Shown here: one piece after another, positions 7,700 through 34,362 of the stretch
Position numbering within the stretch: position 1 is the stretch's first letter
Layout of the letters: each line of letters begins with the position of its first letter
From: Kiritimatiellia bacterium
GTDB lineage: Bacteria > Verrucomicrobiota > Kiritimatiellia > RFP12 > UBA1067
Length of the DNA stretch: 64,000 nt
Direction: 5' to 3'
Assembly (NCBI GenBank): GCA_017514235.1
Contig: JAFWKK010000003.1
Coordinates: 119,905-183,904 of the forward strand
Position numbers and translations under genes: made by a program
Notes under the pieces: generated by a model
The model's database searches: none
What the model was told of the DNA's origin: nothing
What the model saw: only the letters and a program-made list of their open reading frames with translations

Positions 7700-7781
7700 G
7701 GGGGACTATGGGGACGATGGGGACAATGGGGACTGTGGGGACGGCGGGTCGCCACAGTCGCCAATGTCCCCATAGTCCCCC
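7700..7781 (+). repeat. 82-nt palindromic array of nine 9-nt units (GGGGACNNT switching to GTC[C/G]CCNNN), copy L
   Basis: It starts directly after the TGA at 7697-7699 and ends 4 nt before the AAGGAGG Shine-Dalgarno of the next gene. It has perfect 16-nt terminal inverted repeats at 7700-7715 and 7766-7781. Confidence 0.9.
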
Positions 7782-7799
7782 AAAAGGAGGCACCAGCCA

Positions 7800-8477
7800 A
7801 TGGCCACGAAGATCATTTTGCCGCATGGCGGTTACCGAAATCTGCTCACCTACAAGAAGAGCGACGTCATCTACCAGGGCACGGCAGTCTTCGTGAAGCG
7901 TTTTCTTCAGCGCGGCGACCGCACCATCGACCAGATGGTGCAGGCCGCGCGCAGCGGCAAGCAGAACATCGTCGAAGGCAGCGAGGCGTCTGCGACGAGC
8001 AAGGAGACCGAGCTCAAGCTCACCAACGTCGCCAAGGCGAGCCTTGAGGAGCTTCTCGAAGACTACCTCGACTATCTCAAGGTCCACGGCCTGCCCGAAT
8101 GGCCGAAAGATTCCGAAAAGGGTCTCGCGGCGCGCCGGCTCGGGCGCGAGGGCGGCTGGGAGGCCTTCGCGCCGCACATCGAGAAGAAGAGCGACGAGGT
8201 GGCGGCGAACCTGATGGTCTCGCTCATCCGGCAATGCACGTATCTGCTGGCGAAGCAGATCGCGCAGCTCGAAGAAGACTTCAAGAAGCATGGCGGCATC
8301 AAGGAGCGCATGTACGCCGCCCGCAGCGAGGCGCGCGCCGAAGACTGGGGCAAGGCCGCCTACTCGCGCCTCGCCGCCGCGCAGTCGCTCGACGAACTGA
8401 CCGCGCGCTGCCGCGAGATGTCGGCCGAGCTCCGCCGGATGGCCGACGGCATCAAACAGAGAAAGGGCTGGTCATGA
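7800..8477 (+). CDS. Four-helix-bundle protein with suffix domain (23S rRNA intervening-sequence protein / Avd-like family)
   Basis: The 225-aa ORF has an AAGGAGG Shine-Dalgarno 9 nt upstream. The motifs GGYRNLLTYKKSDVIY, DRTIDQMVQAARSGKQNIVEGSEASATSKETELKLTNVAKASLEELLEDY match my recollection of the four-helix-bundle suffix-domain family. Confidence 0.8.
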   Translation: MATKIILPHGGYRNLLTYKKSDVIYQGTAVFVKRFLQRGDRTIDQMVQAARSGKQNIVEGSEASATSKETELKLTNVAKASLEELLEDYLDYLKVHGLPEWPKDSEKGLAARRLGREGGWEAFAPHIEKKSDEVAANLMVSLIRQCTYLLAKQIAQLEEDFKKHGGIKERMYAARSEARAEDWGKAAYSRLAAAQSLDELTARCREMSAELRRMADGIKQRKGWS

Positions 8478-8559
8478 GGGGGAGAATGGGGACTGTGGGG
8501 ACAATGGGGACGGCTGGTCGCCAAAGTCGCCACCGTCCCCATTGTCCCCACCGTCCCCC
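8478..8559 (+). repeat. 82-nt palindromic array of nine 9-nt units, copy R (direct repeat of 7700-7781)
   Basis: It starts directly after the TGA at 8475-8477. It has a perfect 17-bp stem at 8497-8513 and 8533-8549. It has the same length and the same unit vocabulary as copy L. Confidence 0.9.
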
Positions 8560-19494: not shown

Positions 19495-20484
19495 TTATTC
19501 GCCGTCCGGTTCCTCGGCCTTGTCCGCCTTCGGATCGCCCTTGCCGGGATTGTCTGGGCGGAACTCCCAGTCCGGATAGAGGGTCTTCAGCGTCGCACGG
19601 TAGTATTCGGCGTCGATCACGCGGTCCTCCTTGAGCGCCAGGACATACAATGACTCAAGCGACCCGACAACCGCCGAGCGCACGTCCGACGCCTCCTTCG
19701 CGAACGCCTCGTCCACCAGACGCTGTTCGCGCGCGAGCTTGCGAGACTCGCGAGGGATCGAGCGGTCGGTCTCAGGGTCGTAGGCAACCTTCACCTGCTT
19801 CTTGACGTTGCCGTCCGCGTCGATGATGGTGTCTTCCTGTCCGCCGGCCCATGAGAGGTCGGCCACGGTCTTTTCCGGCTTAAGGGCACGTTCGCGCTCC
19901 TCAAGGTCGGCCTTCCATTCGGCGAGGTCGCGGGCCAGCGTCTCGAAATCGACCTTGTGGAGTTCCAGAAGCTTTGCCTCCGCTATGACCTTGTCGGCCT
20001 TCAGCTTTTCAGCTGCAAGCTTCGCCTCCTCGGCCTCCGCCTTGGAAGCCTCTGCCGCGGCATTCTCGCGGGCGGTTTCCTGCTCCGCCTTGGCGGCCTC
20101 GGCCTTCGCCTTCGCTTCGTCTCGCACCGCCTTGGCGGCCTCGGCCTTCGCGCGCTCCGCCTTCGCGTTCTCCTCGGCTGCGGCCTTCTTGTCGGCTGCG
20201 GCCTGGGCCTCCAGCTCCGCCGTGCTGTGCGCAGACTTCTCCGCCTCCAGCGCGTCGGCCTGCGCCTTTGCATTGGACTCCGCCGCACGGCGCTTCTCGG
20301 TCTCGGCAGCAGCCGCCTTCTCCGCCGCGCGCGCCTTCGCGGAAGCGGCATCGGCCCGCGCCGCTTCCGCGTCGGCCTCGGCCCTGGCAATCGCCGCCTT
20401 CTTGCTGAACACGACGGTCCCGGAGACCCCGGCGGCGATCACGGCGACGCATACGGCGATAATTGAGATTGTCTTGGGATTCAT
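19495..20484 (-). CDS. N-terminally membrane-anchored Ala/Glu/Lys-rich coiled-coil protein with a globular C-terminal domain
   Basis: The start is taken at MNPKTISIIAVCVAVIAAGV (ATG 20484, AAAGGAG Shine-Dalgarno). It has a ~170-aa low-complexity A/E/K helix followed by a non-repetitive ~140-aa domain. Confidence 0.7.
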   Translation of the reverse strand: MNPKTISIIAVCVAVIAAGVSGTVVFSKKAAIARAEADAEAARADAASAKARAAEKAAAAETEKRRAAESNAKAQADALEAEKSAHSTAELEAQAAADKKAAAEENAKAERAKAEAAKAVRDEAKAKAEAAKAEQETARENAAAEASKAEAEEAKLAAEKLKADKVIAEAKLLELHKVDFETLARDLAEWKADLEERERALKPEKTVADLSWAGGQEDTIIDADGNVKKQVKVAYDPETDRSIPRESRKLAREQRLVDEAFAKEASDVRSAVVGSLESLYVLALKEDRVIDAEYYRATLKTLYPDWEFRPDNPGKGDPKADKAEEPDGE

Positions 20485-20513
20485 CGGAGAACTCCTTTGG
20501 ACGAGGGAGCGTG

Positions 20514-20670
20514 ATGACATGAGAGGCATGGGGGGCATGAGAGGCGCGAGACGGAGATGGCGTGAGGGACGTGGGGGGCGAGAGAGACGCGAGGGCTCTC
20601 GCCTCTCATGTCTCTCACGTCCCTCATGTCATTGACCCTCTCGCCTCTCATGTCTCTCGCGCCCCTCCCG
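20514..20670 (-). repeat. Palindromic array of about seventeen 9-nt units (CATGAGAGG / CATGGGGGG and complements) between the secretin stop and the next Shine-Dalgarno
   Basis: Read directly. There is 9-nt periodicity, with inverted repeats at 20563-20573/20616-20626, 20582-20588/20610-20616, 20589-20593/20598-20602 and 20514-20523/20624-20633. Confidence 0.85.
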
Positions 20671-23600
20671 TCATTCTTCAAACTTCGTCGCAGCCGCAGG
20701 CTTCTCCTCGGCCTCAGGCTCGGGCTTTACTTCTGCAACAGGCTCTTGCTTTACCTCGGCAACGGGTTCAGGCTTTACTTCTGCAACAGGCTCGGGCTTT
20801 ACCTCAGCAACTGGCTCAGGCTTCACCTCGGCAACTGGCTCGGGCTTTACCTCAGCCACTGGCTCCGGCTTTGCCTCGGCCTCCGGCTTCTCGTCATCGG
20901 CCTTAGCCTTTTCAGCTTTCTCGGCATCGAGCTTTGCGCGCTCGTTGTCGCTGTGCGTAAGCTCCTCGTTAGCCTTGATCTCCTTCTCGGCCTCAGCAAG
21001 CTTCTTAGCCCTAATATCTTCGGCGAGCTTCTTGAGCTCCTCCTGACTTTCCTTGTCGAGCATCTTCTCCTCAAGTTCCTTCTGCTTCTCCTCCTCCAGC
21101 TCTTCCTTGTGCATCTTGAGCCAGAGATCACGCTCTTCCTTCGAGAGAGTCTGTAGCTTCTTGGCGCGCTCCACCTTCTCCTTCTCGATGGCAATCTTGG
21201 TCTTGCGCTCCTCATCCTGCTTCTTCCACTCGTCCTTCAAGCGCCTGAGCTGCTCGCGCTTGCTGACGGGATCGGCCAACTTCGACGCGGACCACCCGTG
21301 GTCATCCCACGGTCTCGGGTCGGACAGCGTCTTCTTGCGGCGAATCGCCTCCGCCTGCGCCACTTGCGCGTCATCAAGCACATAAGGCGTGAGGAAGATC
21401 ATCAGTTCCTTGCGGCTCTCATTGTTCTTCACCGTCCCGAAAAGCCATTTGCCGATGAAGGGTATGTCCTTTAAGAAAGGAATGCCCTTCTCGTACTCCG
21501 ACTTGACCGTCTCGACAAGACCGGCAAAGACCACGGTCTGACCGTCCTCAAGCAGCACGTCGGCAGTCATCTTGCGCTCGACGGCGATATCAACGTCCTG
21601 CGGAATGTACTGTCCGTTCTGCGGAACAAGCATCGACTGGCCGCCATAGTTCACCTGCGAATACTCCTCTTCCACCGTCAGCATGACCGTGCCGTTGGGG
21701 TTGATCTTCGGGGTGATCTTGAGCTTAATGCCGATGTCCTTGGCAGTGTAGTTCGGCGTCGGCTGGCCACTGTTGCCGTAGCTGCCCGACTGAGCCGACC
21801 AGCCAGTAATGAACTGCCTGTTCTCGGTGGCGTCGATCGTAGCCTCCTTGTTATCCACCGTCATGACAACTGGCGACGCTACGTACTTGGTGCGGTTGTC
21901 AGTCTTCGCTGCCTGGAGAATCGTAGAAAGCCCCAGCCTATCGGAGTCGAAGACGAACGAAAACGCCTGTCCGAATACGTTCGATACGACACCAGCGGCG
22001 ATGTCATGCGCCTGCGAACCGCCGTAACTGCCGCCGCCGAGCGCAGCTGCCGCACCGCCGCCGTAATACGCCATTGCGCCGTCACGGGCCACAGCAGCCA
22101 TCGTAGCAGCAACACTGCTGGCTTTCTCGCTTACGGTCTTTGTCCAGGTGTCATTCCCGGTGCCGGTCGTAGTCGTGTTTTCGTAGGAGAAGGTTGACGG
22201 CACAAGCTCGCCGATAAGTGAAGTGGAAGTCTGCGATTTGCCTTGGTTGTCTCCTGTGCCGGTCCATGTGGTCGTGCGCTCTTTGAAAAACATGTTCTGC
22301 GGAACAAGATTTCCGTTCTCGTCAATGGTATGACCGTTCGTCACTGGCTTGGTAATCTTCTGGCGGCCCTTCTGCACCCAGTCCATGCCGGTCTCGATGC
22401 CGTCGCCAAGGCCCACCACGATGATGACCGTCTCGATAAGCACCTGCGAGAGCTTGATGTCCATCGACTCGATGATCTGCTCCAGCGTCGGCACAAGCTC
22501 CTTCTGCGTCATGACGACGAGACCGTTGATGCGCTTGTCATGGAGGACGGTGGTGTTCTCCTTCGAAAGCTCGCCGGCCTTGACGTCTCCGGTGCGCTGG
22601 TTGGCCGACTTCTTCGCGGCGGACGTGCCGCCTGTAGGCGTGTTGCGCGTAAGGTTGCCGCCCGACCCCTGCTTGGCGTTCTGGTTCTGGTTCGCCTTGC
22701 TGGACCCCTTTGACGACGGCGCGTTGCCGATGAGGTCGTTGATCATGTCGGAGACATCCTCCGCAAGGGCGTACTTGAGGCGGTACACCTTTACGACTGT
22801 GTCGGGAGTGGTCTCCACGTCGAGCTGCTCGATGACCTTGTCGAAGAAGTCCATGTTCGACTTCATCGTGACGATGATAAGCTTGTTCGACCGCTCGTCG
22901 GCGAGAATCAGCACCTTGCCGCGTATCATGCCGCGGTCCGCGTCGGAGACGTTCATCACGAGCGACTGGTTGCTCGCCGACGCGGCGGCGGGCTGGTTGC
23001 CGTTCTGGCCCGGGCGGCGCAGCATGCTGCCCAGGAGCGGCGGACGCGGAGCGTTGTTCTGCTGCTGCGCCTGGTTCTGGTTCACGGCCTTGCCGTTCTT
23101 CTCCTGCTCTTTCTGCGACTCCTGCACGATCGCCTCGAGCGCCATCTTGATGTCCTGGGCCGAGGCGTTCTTCACCTGGCGCACGAACACGTTCTCGAGG
23201 ACCGGCGTCGCCACGTCGACCGCTCTCGCGATCTCGAGCATGCGGTTGATGTTCTGCTCCGTATCGGTGACGAGAATCGAGTTGGTGCGCTCGAACACGA
23301 GCAGCACGCCGTCGTTGGACTTAAGCCCCTCCAGCACCTTCTGCGCCTCGTCGGTGGCGATGTTCTTGAACGGAATCATCATCGACACGGTGCGGCTCGT
23401 CTCGCCGACCTTCGTCTCCGAGTCCATGATGAGCGGAATGCCGCCCTTGCGCACGTCCTTGCGGGGCAGCGCGCGCACGAAGCTCTCGCCGTATGGCTCG
23501 AGATGAACGCCGTTCATCTCAAGGATCGTCTCTATGGCCTGGATGTATTCCTCGTCGGTGAGCTTCTGCCCGGCACGCGTCTTCAGCGTGATTGTCGCGC

Positions 23601-23901
23601 TCGGGCAGGCAGGGTCCTTGAGAACGGTCTTGCCGACGCGCTCGCCATACGCCTGCAGCACGATGTCAACGGGCGCGGCGTCCCAGTTCAGCGCCGACGG
23701 GTCGGCGTTCTCGTCCGCAGCCTCGGAGGAATCGGAAGAGTCCGAAGCGGCGGAACGAGACGAACGAGACGAGCGCGACTCGGACGACCTGTTGCGGTCG
23801 CGGCTTCGGCGCAGAAGCGACTGCGCCGAAGCCGATTCGGCCATGACGGCGGCAAGCGCAAGCACCGCGACTATGACATATAAGCCTCTCATGTCTCTCA
23901 T
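20671..23901 (-). CDS. Secretin (GspD/PilQ family) with a long charged C-terminal extension
   Basis: The 1076-aa protein has a signal peptide, secretin-N-type repeats and a secretin core ending in ELMIFLTPYVLDD. This is followed by a ~232-aa E/K-rich helical tail ending in (KPEPVAEV)x6. Confidence 0.85.
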   Translation of the reverse strand: MRDMRGLYVIVAVLALAAVMAESASAQSLLRRSRDRNRSSESRSSRSSRSAASDSSDSSEAADENADPSALNWDAAPVDIVLQAYGERVGKTVLKDPACPSATITLKTRAGQKLTDEEYIQAIETILEMNGVHLEPYGESFVRALPRKDVRKGGIPLIMDSETKVGETSRTVSMMIPFKNIATDEAQKVLEGLKSNDGVLLVFERTNSILVTDTEQNINRMLEIARAVDVATPVLENVFVRQVKNASAQDIKMALEAIVQESQKEQEKNGKAVNQNQAQQQNNAPRPPLLGSMLRRPGQNGNQPAAASASNQSLVMNVSDADRGMIRGKVLILADERSNKLIIVTMKSNMDFFDKVIEQLDVETTPDTVVKVYRLKYALAEDVSDMINDLIGNAPSSKGSSKANQNQNAKQGSGGNLTRNTPTGGTSAAKKSANQRTGDVKAGELSKENTTVLHDKRINGLVVMTQKELVPTLEQIIESMDIKLSQVLIETVIIVVGLGDGIETGMDWVQKGRQKITKPVTNGHTIDENGNLVPQNMFFKERTTTWTGTGDNQGKSQTSTSLIGELVPSTFSYENTTTTGTGNDTWTKTVSEKASSVAATMAAVARDGAMAYYGGGAAAALGGGSYGGSQAHDIAAGVVSNVFGQAFSFVFDSDRLGLSTILQAAKTDNRTKYVASPVVMTVDNKEATIDATENRQFITGWSAQSGSYGNSGQPTPNYTAKDIGIKLKITPKINPNGTVMLTVEEEYSQVNYGGQSMLVPQNGQYIPQDVDIAVERKMTADVLLEDGQTVVFAGLVETVKSEYEKGIPFLKDIPFIGKWLFGTVKNNESRKELMIFLTPYVLDDAQVAQAEAIRRKKTLSDPRPWDDHGWSASKLADPVSKREQLRRLKDEWKKQDEERKTKIAIEKEKVERAKKLQTLSKEERDLWLKMHKEELEEEKQKELEEKMLDKESQEELKKLAEDIRAKKLAEAEKEIKANEELTHSDNERAKLDAEKAEKAKADDEKPEAEAKPEPVAEVKPEPVAEVKPEPVAEVKPEPVAEVKPEPVAEVKQEPVAEVKPEPEAEEKPAAATKFEE
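20724..20891 (-). repeat. In-frame 24-bp tandem repeat (about 7 units) encoding KPEPVAEV repeats at the secretin C-terminus
   Basis: The units begin at 20724, 20748, 20772, 20796, 20820, 20844 and 20868. They differ mainly at wobble positions. Confidence 0.9.
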
Positions 23902-23917
23902 GTCCTCTCTCCCTTCA

Positions 23918-24460: not shown

Positions 24461-25749
24461 CCCTCCTCCGGGAATTCGAGCTCCAGCGTGAAGCGGTACC
24501 TTCCGCCGCGCGAAGAGCCGACGGACCCCATGCGGACCGCACTGAACACGCGCTCTGCGTCGTCGCCCTCGCCGAACGCCATGGCCTCCAACCTGTCCTT
24601 GAACTCGTAGATTTCCGATGACTGGCCGGCGTCGCCCTTCACGACTATGCCCTTGTCGTGCCGGTAGTCCCAGTCCGACAGCGTGACGTCTTCAGGCAGG
24701 CGGTCGGAGACGGCCTTCAGGAGCTCAAGCGCGCTATGGTCCCGGTCGGAGTACTTGCGCACGAGGTTCACCTTGTCGACCATCTTCTTCACCTCGGAGA
24801 ACTTCGCGTGGTGACGCTTCGTGTCCGCCCTCTGCCCGTCGGTCATGAAGCCGTACACGAGCGGCACGCCGAAGAGTACGCCCATCGCCAGCGCCCAAAT
24901 GCCGACGGCGACGGCAAGGAACCTCACGAGCTTCGACTTGAAGCGCGTCTCGGCGAGAACCTCGGCCCAGCTCGCCGGCAGGGCGTTCAGCGACTCCGCC
25001 TCCTCGCTGCGCTCTGCAACGCCAACGAGACCGGCGTCGGCGCCTACGGTCAGCTCGCGGACAGGCGCAAAATCGGAAAGCGAGGCGAAGTCGGGCTGAG
25101 CCGCAGGTTGCGGCTCCTCCGGCGATTCCGCATTCTCCGGACTTTCCGGCCTCTCCGGCGGCTCGGCCTTAACTACAACGATCTCGGAGAGCGGCTTCGC
25201 GCCGCCGAAGTCCTCGGCCTCCAGGAGCGAAAGCATCAGCTCGCGCTTCAGCTCGGCACCGTCGGTAGTGGCGCGTATCGCAGTCGGATGGTCGCCGTCC
25301 AGCACAAATATCGATATGCAGTCGGGCGACGGGAAGAGAACCGCGCGACGCGACGAGCCTTCGCCCGGGCCGAGCGCGTTCCATACGCCGCGCAGCTGCC
25401 CGAGCGCCAGGGAATCGACGCGGGTCACGCTGAGCTTCTCCGCGTCAAGCGCGTCGGCGATGTCGTCCGCCGCGCTCTCAGGCAGGGCGGCGGCGATGAC
25501 GGACGCTCCGTCCTCGTCTTCGCGAACAGTCTCGCAGCCGACGGTCAGCTGGTCGTCTGGGAACGGACTCGCCTTCTGCAGCAGGGGTGTGGCGAATGCG
25601 ACGCGGTCCTCCCCCGCCGGCACCCGCACCATCTTCACGATGAGACGGTTCAGGGGCAACGCAAGGACGGCCTCGCGCCCCGTCTCGCCGGAGGCAAGGA
25701 ACCTCAACGCGCCGCCCTCGAAGGCGACAACCTGTACTCCCTTTGGCAT
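24451..25749 (-). CDS. PilM-PilN fusion-like (GspL-like) assembly protein
   Basis: The 432-aa protein has a cytoplasmic N-domain, an acidic/Pro linker, one TM (LVRFLAVAVGIWALAMGVLFGV) and a periplasmic PilN-like domain. The gene order is M/N-O-secretin. Confidence 0.55.
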   Translation of the reverse strand: MPKGVQVVAFEGGALRFLASGETGREAVLALPLNRLIVKMVRVPAGEDRVAFATPLLQKASPFPDDQLTVGCETVREDEDGASVIAAALPESAADDIADALDAEKLSVTRVDSLALGQLRGVWNALGPGEGSSRRAVLFPSPDCISIFVLDGDHPTAIRATTDGAELKRELMLSLLEAEDFGGAKPLSEIVVVKAEPPERPESPENAESPEEPQPAAQPDFASLSDFAPVRELTVGADAGLVGVAERSEEAESLNALPASWAEVLAETRFKSKLVRFLAVAVGIWALAMGVLFGVPLVYGFMTDGQRADTKRHHAKFSEVKKMVDKVNLVRKYSDRDHSALELLKAVSDRLPEDVTLSDWDYRHDKGIVVKGDAGQSSEIYEFKDRLEAMAFGEGDDAERVFSAVRMGSVGSSRGGRYRFTLELEFPEEGWQ

Positions 25750-31310: not shown

Positions 31311-33359
<2,049 letters not shown>

Positions 33360-33411
33360 AGCCTCTCCAGTATACAATCCACCCACTTTCACTTTGTCAA
33401 GTGTTTTGTAT

Positions 33412-33420
33412 ATTATACCA
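33412..33420 (-). promoter_or_regulatory. Extended -10 TGGTATAAT for rpoD (about 50-nt leader)
   Basis: The consensus is exact on the minus strand in the divergent intergenic region. Confidence 0.55.
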
Positions 33421-33474
33421 TAAATTCGAAGCGTGTGGCGGAGGAAATTGCACATCGGCGGCGCTGGGTATTTA

Positions 33475-33483
33475 TGGTATAAT
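33475..33483 (+). promoter_or_regulatory. Extended -10 TGGTATAAT, 6 nt upstream of ATG 33490 (leaderless configuration)
   Basis: The consensus is exact. The longer ORF from 33433 would include the promoter itself. Confidence 0.6.
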
Positions 33484-33489
33484 TTCCGC

Positions 33490-34362
33490 ATGGACGACTA
33501 CGAACTTCTAGATTCTGGCGGCGGACGCAAGCTGGAGCGCTTCGGACGCTACGTCTTGGCGCGTCCCTGCTCCCAGGCACTGTGGCAGCCGTCCCTGTCC
33601 GAAGAGGAATGGAGCCGCGCCGACGCCTCCTTCGACCGCGAGGACGGCAACCGCTGGCACGGCCGCGCCAACCTGCCGAAGGAATGGGCAGTAGAGACGG
33701 CCGGAATACGGCTTCTGCTCGGCGGAACCGACTTCGGGCACCTAGGCGTGTTCCCGGAGCAGCGCAAGCAATGGGAATGGATACGCAGGACCGTGGGCGC
33801 GGCCTGCGCCGGCGGAGCCGTCCCAAGCGTGCTCAACCTCTTCGCCTATTCCGGCGGCTCGACGCTGGCAGCCGCGCTCGGCGGCGCGGAAGTATGCCAT
33901 CTCGACGCCTCCAAGGGCATGGTCGAATGGGCCCGCAGGAACGCGCGCCTGAACGGACTCGACGGCCGCCCGATCCGCTGGATCACGGACGACGCGCACA
34001 AGTTCATGCGTCGGGAGGTGCGCCGCGGGCGCCGGTACGACGCGATCATACTCGACCCGCCGACGTTCGGGCGCGGAACGTCCGGCGAAATGTACAAGAT
34101 AGAGCGCGACCTCCAGAAGACGCTCTCGCTTGCAAGCGACCTCCTGTCGGACGACCCGATCTTCGTGCTCCTGTCGTCCCACACCCCCGGCCTCACCCGT
34201 ACCGTGGCCGAGAACGTCATGGGTCAGCGCTTCCCCGGCGCCAGGATAGAATCGGGCGAGATGCTTCTCGAAGGGCGCGGGCTGCCGTGCCCCAGCGGCA
34301 TATACTGCCGCGCGGTTTTTGATATACTACCGGCAGGAGAGAAAAAAGGACCCAGGAAATGA
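33490..34362 (+). CDS. Class I SAM-dependent (rRNA-type) methyltransferase
   Basis: It begins [19 protein letters not shown] and has the SAM-binding [10 protein letters not shown] and DPPTFGRG motifs. Confidence 0.75.

What the first reader, a model, noticed from the sequence alone, without database searches (positions are those of the whole stretch)
20485..20673. Second member of the 9-nt-unit palindromic family lies after the secretin stop and shares an exact 16-mer with the secretin start codon region
Seen directly. Immediately after the secretin stop (TGA, complement of 20671-20673), about 157 nt (20514-20670) decompose into roughly seventeen 9-mers. On the plus strand these are CATGAGAGG, CATGGGGGG, CATGAGAGG and so on, switching at 20595 to the complements CCTCTCATG, TCTCTC.... 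Several nested inverted repeats are present, for example 20563-20573/20616-20626. The AAAGGAG Shine-Dalgarno of the next gene follows.

The exact 16-mer GCCTCTCATGTCTCTC occurs three times in the window: at 20601-20616, at 20643-20658 and at 23884-23899. The last copy encodes the first residues (MRDMRG) of the secretin itself.

The unit CATGGGGGG links this array to the ATGGGGAC units at 7700-8559. The architecture is the same in all three cases: stop codon, then array, then Shine-Dalgarno.

Inference: this is an intercistronic RNA structure family, functionally analogous to REP/BIME elements. It could set differential mRNA stability or translation coupling inside operons. The periodic in-frame ATGs are unexplained.
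Basis: partly seen in the sequence, partly recalled or inferred. Interest (0 to 1): 0.68.

Follow-up and report, generated by a model that had tools for sequence, protein, structure and literature searches.

The report
Leftover hairpin of a mobile gene cassette
The 160-base repeat-built hairpin after the secretin gene is real, and it is most likely the gene-less remnant (or landing site) of a small selfish cassette that in close relatives carries a four-helix-bundle gene at exactly this spot; genes of that family, in many bacterial lineages, turn out to be flanked by the same odd 9-base repeat arrays.

Summary
Bases 20514-20673 (minus strand) form about 17.8 nonamers in one register, running from the secretin TGA. 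A purine arm faces a pyrimidine arm (RNA fold -98.8 kcal/mol, z -5.6). The 16-mer occurs three times against 0.06 expected.

The REP/BIME-like regulatory reading is only partly supported. The organism is a Kiritimatiellae bacterium. In two relatives (secretin 84% and 79% identical) the same site holds a four-helix-bundle gene (TIGR04258/TIGR02436, 23S-rRNA-IVS-protein/Avd fold). That gene sits between direct copies of the purine arm, and recombination between them would give the window's arrangement with the same 189-nt spacing. A 94% relative and two others lack the array. Pairing shows no clear selection, no sense-strand bias and no terminator.

Arrays A and B (7700-8558) flank the window's own four-helix-bundle gene. 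Cassettes 86-96% identical to it sit at other genomic sites. Among 80 metagenomic homologues (GC 30-68%), period-9 arrays are about 8-fold to 29-fold enriched at the gene ends.

The periodic ATGs serve as start codons in relatives, and the 9-nt unit keeps the reading frame.

Best reading: a solo, IVS-like hairpin of a mobile four-helix-bundle cassette. I found no description of the nonamer-array association.

The parts
20514..20673 (-). Array C: ORF-less ('solo') nonamer-array hairpin, 17.8 units in one register, beginning with the secretin stop codon
20596..20674 (-). 5' (purine-rich) arm on the sense strand. Two tandem 42-nt copies (20633-20674 and 20596-20632). Units are GAGAGR / GAGGGAC followed by CAT/CGT. 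It holds two copies of the 16-mer.
   Evidence: TRF period 42 x1.9, 89%
20514..20593 (-). 3' (pyrimidine-rich) arm on the sense strand: inner copy 20557-20593, outer copy 20514-20550. Each can pair with either purine copy.
   Evidence: inverted repeats I1, I4, I5, I12
20671..20673 (-). Secretin stop codon TGA, which is also the first triplet of the array. The T of TGA to the A of the next ATG is 189 nt = 21 x 9, the same as in L137.
20492..20498 (-). Shine-Dalgarno AAAGGAG of the downstream 329-aa gene (ATG at 20484-20482). It lies outside the main stem.
20671..23901 (-). Secretin gene (PF00263 + Secretin_N). The alternative start at 23892 is the one used by gene callers.
23885..23916 (-). Remnant purine array at the secretin start, containing the third 16-mer copy. 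In four relatives this site holds an in-frame array that folds as a hairpin in L138, weakly in L137 and L222 and not in L224 (MRDTRD...SLVSRV...). In the window and L141 it is reduced to 2-3 units.
7700..7781 (+). Array A: GGGGACNNT hairpin between the stop of the 1140-aa gene and the SD of the four-helix-bundle gene
7800..8477 (+). Four-helix-bundle suffix-domain gene (TIGR04258 75.5 bits against cutoff 40; TIGR02436 28.3 against 24). The AF2 model has pLDDT 90, and its top structural hits are 2GSC, 2RLD and a chain of the DGR RT ribonucleoprotein entry 8UB7 (chain B).
8479..8558 (+). Array B: GGGGACNNT hairpin between the four-helix-bundle gene stop and the next gene

Best explanation
Array C is the ORF-less ('solo') form of a small selfish cassette. 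The cassette consists of a four-helix-bundle gene (TIGR02436/TIGR04258, Pfam 23S_rRNA_IVP, Avd-like fold) bounded by arrays of 9-nt units. In this lineage the arrays are arranged as hairpins.

In relatives the gene sits in the apex of this same hairpin, between two direct copies of the purine arm. Homologous recombination between those copies removes the gene and leaves exactly what the window shows. The reverse, Campbell-type event would load a gene into a solo hairpin. So the array exists because of DNA-level cassette dynamics, not because the secretin operon needs it.

In the polycistronic mRNA it folds into a ~65-70-bp imperfect stem whose base brings the secretin stop and the next gene's SD to within about 15 nt of each other. 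That is probably why the 189-nt insertion is tolerated.

By analogy with rRNA intervening sequences, which have the same gene family, the same stem-plus-ORF or stem-only forms, and short tandem repeats before the ORF, the stem is probably an RNase III substrate.

Shown: the family link, the site polymorphism, the direct repeats and the cross-lineage association with nonamer arrays.
Inferred: the direction of the event (loss in the window lineage), recombination as the mechanism, and RNase III processing.
For: 1. Same site in relatives. L137/L136 (NCBI GCA_017403825.1, Kiritimatiellae; secretin 84% identical) and L222 (79%) carry a 286-aa four-helix-bundle + Zn-ribbon gene between the secretin and the 329/332-aa gene (family).
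2. Direct repeats. L137 has 95-nt direct repeats at 96% identity, the first 80 nt identical, 871 nt apart, and each starts at a TGA stop. Deleting one repeat plus the gene gives the window's layout with an identical 189-nt TGA-to-ATG distance and 89% identity.
3. Patchy presence on the secretin tree. The states are solo (window), empty (L141, L138, L224) and loaded (L137, L222). The two loaded genes are 76% identical, about as diverged as their secretins.
4. The window's arrays A and B flank a gene of the same family.
5. Other sites. Cassettes 96% and 86% identical, with the same GGGGAC hairpins, sit in other genomic contexts (L142; L225 between an FGE-sulfatase gene and a beta-helix gene). 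L142 shows tandem cassettes.
6. Close homologues lie mostly on 1-2-kb contigs, as expected if repeats break assemblies.
7. Generality. In 80 metagenomic loci, period 9/18/27 arrays number 68 in 47 kb at the gene ends against 39 in 212 kb elsewhere. With a strict detector the counts are 31 against 4, and those 4 are extensions of, or share the unit of, the adjacent array. No other period is enriched. 32 of 57 loci with both flanks show flanking direct or inverted repeats, or hairpins.
8. Family members carry tripeptide-periodic N-terminal extensions.
9. Literature. The Coxiella IVS has an RNase III-cut stem, an S23p ORF and a variable number of tandem heptamers before the start codon (PMC4990558). 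IVP genes are found intercalated in cas operons (PMC3936711) and in rRNA insertions with and without ORFs (10.1101/2024.02.27.582315).
Against: - Direction is not proven. The loaded state occurs in both secretin clades, each with empty sisters. Several losses, or two gains at one site, are both possible.
- No recombinase, RT or transposase is in the window, and no excision junction or circle was observed.
- The reverse association fails. GGGGAC nonamer arrays in other phyla have no four-helix-bundle gene nearby, so nonamer arrays are not exclusive to these genes.
- About 45% of homologue loci show no detectable array.
- RNase III cleavage and any effect on expression are untested.
- No whole genome of this organism was available for a copy-number census.
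Confidence: 0.62

Rival explanations
1. REP/BIME-like host regulatory element. The hairpin is kept because it sets differential mRNA stability or translational coupling between the secretin and the downstream genes.
For: - Strong predicted stem exactly between stop and SD.
- Identical sequence in 8 contigs of the population.
- The same stop-array-SD layout in three places.
- Two compensatory pairs relative to L137.
Against: - Absent in the 94% relative and in two others that have the same operon.
- Divergence from L137 (11%) is no lower than that of the coding flanks, and 3-8 pairs are broken.
- The antisense strand folds better than the sense strand, with no bias over 37 hairpins.
- No U-tract, no Rfam family, no RAYT.
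- In relatives the same arrays lie inside ORFs.
Confidence: 0.12
2. Protein-binding array. The nonamers, which often share a GGAC/GRGAC core, are recognition sites on DNA or RNA for the pentameric four-helix-bundle protein. This would resemble heptad arrays bound by plasmid omega repressors, or repeats bound by TRAP/CsrA. The hairpin would be a by-product of having sites in both orientations. The solo array would still be bound in trans by a paralogous protein.
For: - Period 9 is conserved across GC 30-68% while unit sequences differ.
- A GGAC/GTCC core is present in 41 of 71 gene-adjacent arrays (26 of 43 loci) against 9 of 45 elsewhere.
- Several loci have arrays in direct orientation only, with no hairpin (L160, L163, L166).
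- The L137/L222 protein carries a Top1-type zinc ribbon, a DNA-binding module.
- A chain of the DGR reverse-transcriptase ribonucleoprotein entry 8UB7 is among the best structural matches. That this chain is Avd, and that Avd binds nucleic acid, is from my own knowledge.
Against: - No binding data.
- Units differ widely even between the two cassette types of one organism (GGGGAC against GAGAGR).
- Unit numbers range from 3 to more than 50.
- Shared descent of gene and array explains the co-occurrence equally well.
Confidence: 0.22
3. Local simple-sequence growth. An SD-like purine motif at the gene boundary expanded by replication slippage and strand-switching into a quasi-palindrome, independently of any gene. 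The four-helix-bundle gene landed there by chance.
For: - Empty sites already contain two nonamer-like units that double as the SD (L141 'CGAGAGGGGCGCGAGG', L224 'CATAAGGGACGTGAGTGAC').
- Nonamer arrays without four-helix-bundle genes exist in other phyla.
Against: - The same gene family is found at the same site in two clades, and next to arrays in 43 of 80 unrelated loci.
- All strict arrays in 264 kb of those loci relate to the gene.
- None of the other ~44 intergenic regions of the window has such an array.
Confidence: 0.04

Closest known systems
23S rRNA intervening sequences (IVS) with or without the S23p / 23S_rRNA_IVP ORF (Salmonella, Leptospira, Coxiella)
   Same: - Same protein family in the loaded form.
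- Terminal inverted repeats form a long stem.
- ORF-containing and ORF-less versions both exist.
- Short tandem repeats of variable number lie immediately before the ORF start (Coxiella GACAGAT heptamers, PMC4990558).
- Sporadic distribution among close relatives, and regarded as selfish.
   Different: - Located between, or inside the ends of, protein-coding cistrons rather than in helix 25/45 of 23S rRNA.
- The arms are built from 9-nt units.
- The gene is flanked by direct copies of one arm, or by two complete hairpins.
- RNase III excision is not shown here.
REP/BIME elements and their RAYT transposases
   Same: Intergenic imperfect palindromes in operons. Mosaic arrangements in alternating orientation. 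They can act as mRNA stabilisers.
   Different: - 160 nt with internal 9-nt periodicity, against 20-40-nt units.
- No RAYT gene in the window.
- Copies occur in frame inside ORFs in relatives.
- The associated gene is a non-enzymatic helical bundle.
- Copy number is unknown.
MITEs and their autonomous parents; enterobacterial RU/ERIC-type small mobile sequences found inside genes (PMC2759123)
   Same: The solo hairpin stands to the gene-carrying element as a MITE stands to its transposon. In-frame intragenic copies are tolerated.
   Different: No transposase, no target-site duplication seen. Direct repeats of a whole arm point to homologous recombination instead.
Integron gene cassettes with attC hairpins
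   Same: A promoterless ORF followed by an imperfect hairpin directly after the stop codon. Tandem cassettes occur (L142). Sites can be empty or loaded.
   Different: No integrase or attI. The cassettes sit inside ordinary operons at scattered sites. The hairpins lack attC R/L boxes and are nonamer arrays.
Avd of diversity-generating retroelements
   Same: Same fold superfamily: chain B of the DGR reverse-transcriptase ribonucleoprotein entry 8UB7 is a top structural match (that this chain is Avd is from my own knowledge).
   Different: No reverse transcriptase and no template/variable repeat pair in the window. An extra C-terminal 'suffix' domain is present.

Membership tests
Four-helix-bundle / 23S_rRNA_IVP / Avd family (for the associated gene) | Match to the curated family HMMs | tested here: met
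   Window gene: TIGR04258 75.5 bits (cutoff 40) and TIGR02436 28.3 (cutoff 24). L137 gene: TIGR04258 50.8 and TIGR02436 22.6, just below cutoff. Pfam PF05635 scores 24.5 and 22.9, below the gathering score of 33.8. PF05635 is precomputed for many homologues.
Four-helix-bundle / 23S_rRNA_IVP / Avd family (for the associated gene) | Four-helix-bundle fold like Xcc0516 / BT_0352 / Avd | tested here: met
   AF2 with a 33-sequence alignment gives pLDDT 90.4. Foldseek top hits are 2GSC (prob 1.00, TM to target 0.73), 2RLD (0.99, 0.77) and 8UB7_B, a chain of the DGR RT ribonucleoprotein (0.95, 0.67). E-values are weak, 0.035-1. A profile search against PDB sequences gives 2GSC only at E = 0.11.
23S rRNA intervening sequence (IVS) | Inserted in helix 25 or 45 of 23S rRNA | tested here: not met
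   The element lies between the secretin gene and the next ORF. The only Rfam hit in the window is a tRNA.
23S rRNA intervening sequence (IVS) | Terminal inverted repeats forming a long stem; ORF of the IVP family in some copies and none in others | tested here: met
   Stem. Loaded copies: L137, L222. ORF-less copy: the window.
23S rRNA intervening sequence (IVS) | Excision by RNase III | not testable with these tools
   No RNA data. The stem length fits an RNase III substrate (inference).
REP/BIME | Short (20-40 nt) palindromic unit with a conserved head, present in hundreds of extragenic copies | tested here: not met
   The unit is a 9-mer array and the element is 160 nt. There are only 3-4 copies in 64 kb. 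Copies lie inside ORFs in relatives. Genome-wide copy number could not be measured.
REP/BIME | Association with a RAYT (Y1 transposase) gene | tested here: inconclusive
   No such domain among the ORFs scanned or in the precomputed Pfam calls for neighbouring loci. The rest of the genome is unseen.
Intrinsic terminator | GC-rich stem followed by a U-tract on the transcribed strand | tested here: not met
   No minus-strand terminator-like site in 20300-20900. The stem is followed by CAUCACGCUCCC.
MITE | Terminal inverted repeats plus a target-site duplication, and an autonomous partner encoding a transposase | tested here: not met
   Inverted arms are present. No target-site duplication is visible. 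The partner gene is a helical bundle, not a transposase.
Integron cassette / attC | IntI integrase, attI, and attC with R/L boxes | tested here: not met
   No integrase in the window. The flanking genes are core operon genes.
DGR | Reverse transcriptase plus a TR/VR repeat pair next to the Avd-like gene | tested here: not met
   No RT domain in the window or in the neighbouring gene calls.
CRISPR array | Repeats of 24-48 nt separated by unique spacers | tested here: not met
   The units are contiguous 9-mers with no spacers.

The most novel reading that the evidence does not exclude
Four-helix-bundle (IVS-protein/Avd-like) pentamers are sequence-specific binders of 9-nt repeat arrays (GGAC-type core). 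They use those arrays to move their own gene as a transposase-free cassette. Arrays anywhere in a genome would act as landing pads, solo hairpins such as array C would be empty pads or footprints, and the classic rRNA intervening sequences would be the same elements landed in rRNA helices. This would define a new class of mobile element and give the IVS proteins a function after 30 years.
Probability: 0.2. Interest if true: 0.85.

Novelty: new variant of a known kind. Interest (0 to 1): 0.64.

Why it matters
Proteins of the 23S-rRNA-IVS / 'four helix bundle' family are very common. This subfamily alone has 3,275 clusters at 50% identity. They turn up wedged into rRNA genes, cas operons and restriction operons, and they have no known function or known means of spread.

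This work shows three things:
- They travel with 9-nt periodic arrays.
- The same chromosomal site can be empty, hold a solo hairpin, or be loaded.
- Direct repeats of an array arm bracket the gene.

Together these give a concrete, testable model for how these genes move. They also give a sequence signature for finding their footprints.

For annotation, it explains odd N-terminal tripeptide repeats (MRD...) and over-extended ORF calls at gene starts. It also warns against reading such hairpins as host regulatory elements.

Tried and rejected
1. GTDB genome scan for GGGGACN3GGGGACN3GGGGAC. Hits were mostly unrelated tandem nonamers (actinobacterial arrays, apparently coding, and cyanobacterial arrays). 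None had a four-helix-bundle gene within the 8-kb locus, even at E < 10. It is therefore neither a census nor reverse support.
2. Exact look-ups of the secretin protein failed for both start choices. The locus was reached through the neighbouring gene instead.
3. Population contigs are identical across samples, so they say nothing about evolution.
4. Rfam gathering search: only a tRNA.
5. Viral contig scan for the gene family: nothing.
6. Single-sequence AF2 gave pLDDT 53 and was discarded.
7. phmmer and profile searches against PDB sequences were marginal.
8. Covariation between the window and L137 has too little power: 2 compensatory pairs, against roughly 1 by my own rough estimate of chance.
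9. Sense versus antisense folding, used as a test for RNA-level selection, showed no bias.
10. Six literature searches found nothing describing nonamer arrays next to these genes. Ralph & McClelland 1993 is not held.
11. Terminator, CRISPR, integron, DGR and MITE readings were rejected on their defining features (see the membership tests).
Full report
**Observation**

On the minus (sense) strand the secretin gene (20671-23901; PF00263 plus Secretin_N) ends with TGA at 20673-20671. From that TGA, 160 nt down to 20514 read as 17.8 consecutive nonamers in a single register.

- Lag-9 identity is 0.59 in each half, against 0.34-0.36 in composition-matched (first-order Markov) random sequences (0 of 2000 reach it). 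At the purine/pyrimidine level it is 0.84.
- The first half (20674-20596) is purine-rich: GAGAGR/GAGGGAC hexamers followed by CAT/CGT.
- The second half (20593-20514) is its pyrimidine complement. The turn is at 20594/20595.
- Each half is itself a 42-43-nt tandem duplication, so four half-arms can pair in alternative ways (I1, I4, I5, I12).
- The RNA fold is -98.8 kcal/mol, z = -5.55.
- The SD AAAGGAG (20498-20492) and the ATG of a 329-aa gene (20484) follow.
- The 16-mer occurs exactly three times, with 0.06 expected.
- No terminator-like site lies on the minus strand, and Rfam finds only a tRNA in the window.

**Source**

The window is a 66.7-kb metagenome scaffold. Its secretin homologues are named Kiritimatiellae/Kiritimatiellia. 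Array C and arrays A and B are identical, apart from single-base differences in two contigs (within the 181-nt A and 161-nt B regions compared), in all contigs of this population from several samples. Variation had to be sought in relatives.

**The key comparison: the same site in relatives**

| Relative | Secretin identity | State of the site |
|---|---|---|
| L137 (GCA_017403825.1) and L136 | 84% | 286-aa gene between secretin and the 329-aa gene |
| L222 | 79% | orthologous 286-aa gene, 76% identical to that of L137 |
| L141 | 94% | only TGACGAGAGGGGCGCGAGGAAGTTCTCCGATG |
| L224 | 75% | two nonamer-like units |
| L138 | 77% | the genes overlap |

- The inserted protein matches TIGR04258 (four helix bundle suffix domain) above cutoff. 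It matches TIGR02436 and Pfam 23S_rRNA_IVP weakly, and it has a Top1-type zinc ribbon.
- In L137 the gene is bracketed by a 95-nt direct repeat at 96% identity, with the first 80 nt identical, 871 nt apart. This repeat is the purine arm of the hairpin, and each copy starts at a TGA stop. The second copy is followed by the pyrimidine arm and the same SD and ATG.
- Removing one repeat plus the gene gives precisely the window's arrangement. The TGA-to-ATG distance is 189 nt in both, with no indels and 21 substitutions.
- On a secretin tree the loaded state occurs in both clades, and each has empty sisters.

The site is therefore polymorphic: empty, solo hairpin, or loaded.

**The sister arrays**

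Arrays A (7700-7781) and B (8479-8558) are complete GGGGACNNT hairpins. They flank a 225-aa gene (7800-8477) of the same family.

- TIGR04258 scores 75.5 bits against a cutoff of 40, and TIGR02436 scores 28.3 against 24.
- An AF2 model built on 33 homologues has pLDDT 90.
- Its best structural matches are Xcc0516 (2GSC), the 'S23 ribosomal protein family' protein BT_0352 (2RLD), and chain B of the DGR reverse-transcriptase ribonucleoprotein entry 8UB7, which I take from my own knowledge to be Avd.
- A 96%-identical copy with the same hairpins lies in a different upstream context and is followed by the start of a second copy (L142).
- An 86%-identical copy, again hairpin-gene-hairpin, lies between an FGE-sulfatase gene and a giant beta-helix gene (L225).
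- Most close homologues are on 1-2-kb contigs, as expected when flanking repeats break assemblies.

**The 16-mer at the secretin start**

In L137, L222, L138 and L224 the secretin ORF begins with an in-frame array of a purine stretch followed by a pyrimidine stretch. It is translated as MRDTRD...SLVSRV... before the signal-peptide core. These fold with z = -4.2 (L138), -2.1 (L137), -1.8 (L222) and 0.1 (L224; no hairpin beyond chance), so only some are still hairpins.

The window and L141 have lost it, apart from 2-3 purine units. The third 16-mer copy is that remnant.

In L137 and L222 the four-helix-bundle ORF also starts inside the purine arm (MRDVRDMRGE..., MRDARDMRDE...). So the 'unexplained' periodic ATGs are used as start codons, and a 9-nt unit lets arrays grow or shrink without frameshifts.

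**Generality**

A metagenome scan for relatives of the protein returned 80 loci with GC between 30% and 68%.

- TRF finds 68 arrays of period 9, 18 or 27 in the 47 kb adjoining the gene ends, against 39 in the remaining 212 kb. In all, 43 of the 80 loci have at least one.
- A strict detector finds 31 against 4, with no enrichment at periods 6-8 or 10-12.
- Of the four 'distant' arrays, three are continuations of very long adjacent arrays and one shares the unit of the adjacent array.
- Units differ between lineages (GGGGACNNT, GTGAGAGAG, AAGGACCTC, GTCCCATNT, CTCAGAATC, GACTTTAAT and others). Even so, 41 of 71 contain GGAC/GTCC.
- Of 57 loci with both flanks, 11 have flanking direct repeats, 8 have flanking inverted repeats (IVS-like), 17 have an upstream hairpin and 9 a downstream hairpin.
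- Some loci have direct arrays only, with no hairpin (L160, L163, L166).
- Family members in an independent protein library carry tripeptide-periodic N-terminal extensions.
- The subfamily has 3,275 clusters at 50% identity at E <= 0.001.

The converse does not hold. GGGGAC nonamer arrays found in other phyla have no such gene nearby.

**Is the hairpin selected as RNA?**

The evidence is negative or neutral.

- Between the window and L137, 2 pairs changed compensatorily, 3-5 changed on one side with pairing kept, and 3-8 were broken. This is close to what I would roughly expect by chance, given transitions in purine and pyrimidine arms (my estimate, not computed).
- The antisense strand of array C folds better than the sense strand (-118/-123 against -90/-98 kcal/mol).
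- Over 37 hairpins of the family, the sense strand is more stable in 20 and the antisense in 17 (Wilcoxon p = 0.81).
- The element is dispensable in close relatives.

It fits inverted repeats maintained or generated at the DNA level.

**Mechanism proposed**

- Shown: array C belongs to the array family that bounds four-helix-bundle genes. Its site is loaded in relatives, and the loaded form has long, nearly identical direct repeats.
- Inferred: recombination between those repeats deleted the gene in the window lineage. Conversely, a circular gene-plus-arm could integrate into a solo hairpin.
- Inferred: the hairpin is tolerated because the stem juxtaposes the stop codon and the SD. The base of the stem is at 20670/20514, and the SD lies 15 nt further on.
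- Inferred: the long stem is probably cut by RNase III, as shown for rRNA IVSs that carry the same gene family and short tandem repeats before the ORF (PMC4990558).
- Open: whether the protein recognises the nonamers. This is the most interesting open point. The conserved period, the recurrent GGAC core and the DNA-binding zinc ribbon hint at it.

**Comparison with the known**

The closest known systems are the 23S rRNA intervening sequences. They share the gene family, stem-plus-ORF and stem-only forms, and a patchy, selfish distribution (PMC4990558; 10.1101/2024.02.27.582315). It is also known that IVP genes sit intercalated in cas operons (PMC3936711).

What differs here:
- the location in mRNA;
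- the 9-nt array construction;
- the direct-repeat bracketing;
- the solo copies at protein-gene boundaries and inside ORFs.

No reverse transcriptase, RAYT, integrase or transposase domain was found among the ORFs scanned or in the precomputed gene calls; the window is otherwise ordinary chromosome (rpoD, gatB, ruvB, ruvC, SHMT). In six full-text searches I found no description of nonamer arrays associated with these genes.

**Verdict**

The feature is real. The regulatory interpretation is weak. The best-supported reading is a solo hairpin of a mobile four-helix-bundle cassette, which is a new variant of the IVS kind. The cross-lineage link between these genes and 9-nt arrays is the part worth following up.

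Noticed in passing
window 23885-23916 (-); L137:4365-4480, L222:4001-4135, L138:10001-10125, L224:4001-4125: In four relatives the secretin ORF starts with an in-frame array. The purine arm encodes charged MRD-type tripeptides and the pyrimidine arm encodes Leu/Val/Ser. It folds as a hairpin in L138, weakly in L137 and L222, and not in L224. In L137, where I checked the frames, the only in-frame canonical start codons lie at its 5' end, so it must be translated there. The window and L141 have deleted it.
   Followed up: partly
L142:1077-1996 (JGI JAEEGL015231436.1): A 96%-identical four-helix-bundle gene sits in a different upstream context. It is followed by a 7-unit GGGGAC hairpin and then the SD and start of a second copy. 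These are tandem cassettes, reminiscent of a cassette array.
   Followed up: partly
window 7748-7765, 8517-8534; L142, L225 hairpins: In all six GGGGAC-type hairpins read (window A and B; L142 and L225, upstream and downstream), at least two units of the 3' arm next to the apex read GTCGCC instead of GTCCCC. This gives the same G-G mismatches near the loop in independent copies (A, B, L142, L225). It is either a conserved asymmetry or a mark of a common master copy.
   Followed up: no
window 7701-7741 and 8479-8511 (+): The sense-strand arms of arrays A and B are canonical G-quadruplex motifs, (GGGG N5) x4-5. These would compete with the hairpin in RNA or in single-stranded DNA.
   Followed up: no
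window 20699-20880 (-): 24/48-nt tandem repeats at the 3' end of the secretin gene encode a C-terminal (KPEPVAEV)n-like tail. Tail length differs among relatives (secretin 1031-1089 aa).
   Followed up: no
window 33412-33433 / 33462-33483: An AT-rich 22-nt inverted repeat (86% complementary, 28 nt apart) lies at the 5' end of the rpoD-like ORF (31311-33491, minus strand) in an otherwise 63% GC window. It may be an operator or promoter element, or the ORF start may be miscalled.
   Followed up: no
L015, L016, L020, L042, L043, L099, L120 (cyanobacterial genomes): Several of these have long G-rich GGGGACAAG nonamer arrays followed by C-rich heptamer (CTCCCCA-type) arrays; others show the nonamer array alone (L020, L042) or a C-rich complement that could pair with it (L120). 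No four-helix-bundle gene lies within 8 kb. This is a separate class of nonamer array.
   Followed up: partly
L013, L037, L039, L124: GGGGACAC(T/C)GGGGACA triplets with nearby inverted GTGTCCCC copies occur in Thiohalocapsa (L013), Pirellulaceae (L037) and Terriglobia (L039) contigs, and in L124, whose organism I did not identify. They look like iteron- or operator-type sites and are unrelated to the present family.
   Followed up: no
L138:9917-10000: An 8-nt periodic array, GTTGAAAA/GTTGAAGG x ~7, lies in the 83-nt spacer upstream of the secretin start in the 77% relative. It is absent from the window.
   Followed up: no
L203:1852-2700: Here the four-helix-bundle gene is preceded by an array that is translated as (NQN/SSQ)n. 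Immediately downstream begins an ORF that I read by eye as resembling a type I restriction specificity (HsdS) subunit; it was not tested. A second array with the same unit lies 1.6 kb upstream, inside the preceding ORF.
   Followed up: partly
window 25133-25156 (-); L138:8661-8710; L222:2750-2799: In-frame 9-nt repeats lie inside the 432-aa gene upstream of the secretin (tripeptide repeats of variable length among relatives). They may be an ordinary linker or another trace of the same array dynamics.
   Followed up: no
literature: PMC10910872, PMC3936711: 23S_rRNA_IVP proteins are listed as CRISPR-linked or cas-locus genes in two surveys. Repeat arrays flanking these genes might contribute to such calls.
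   Followed up: no
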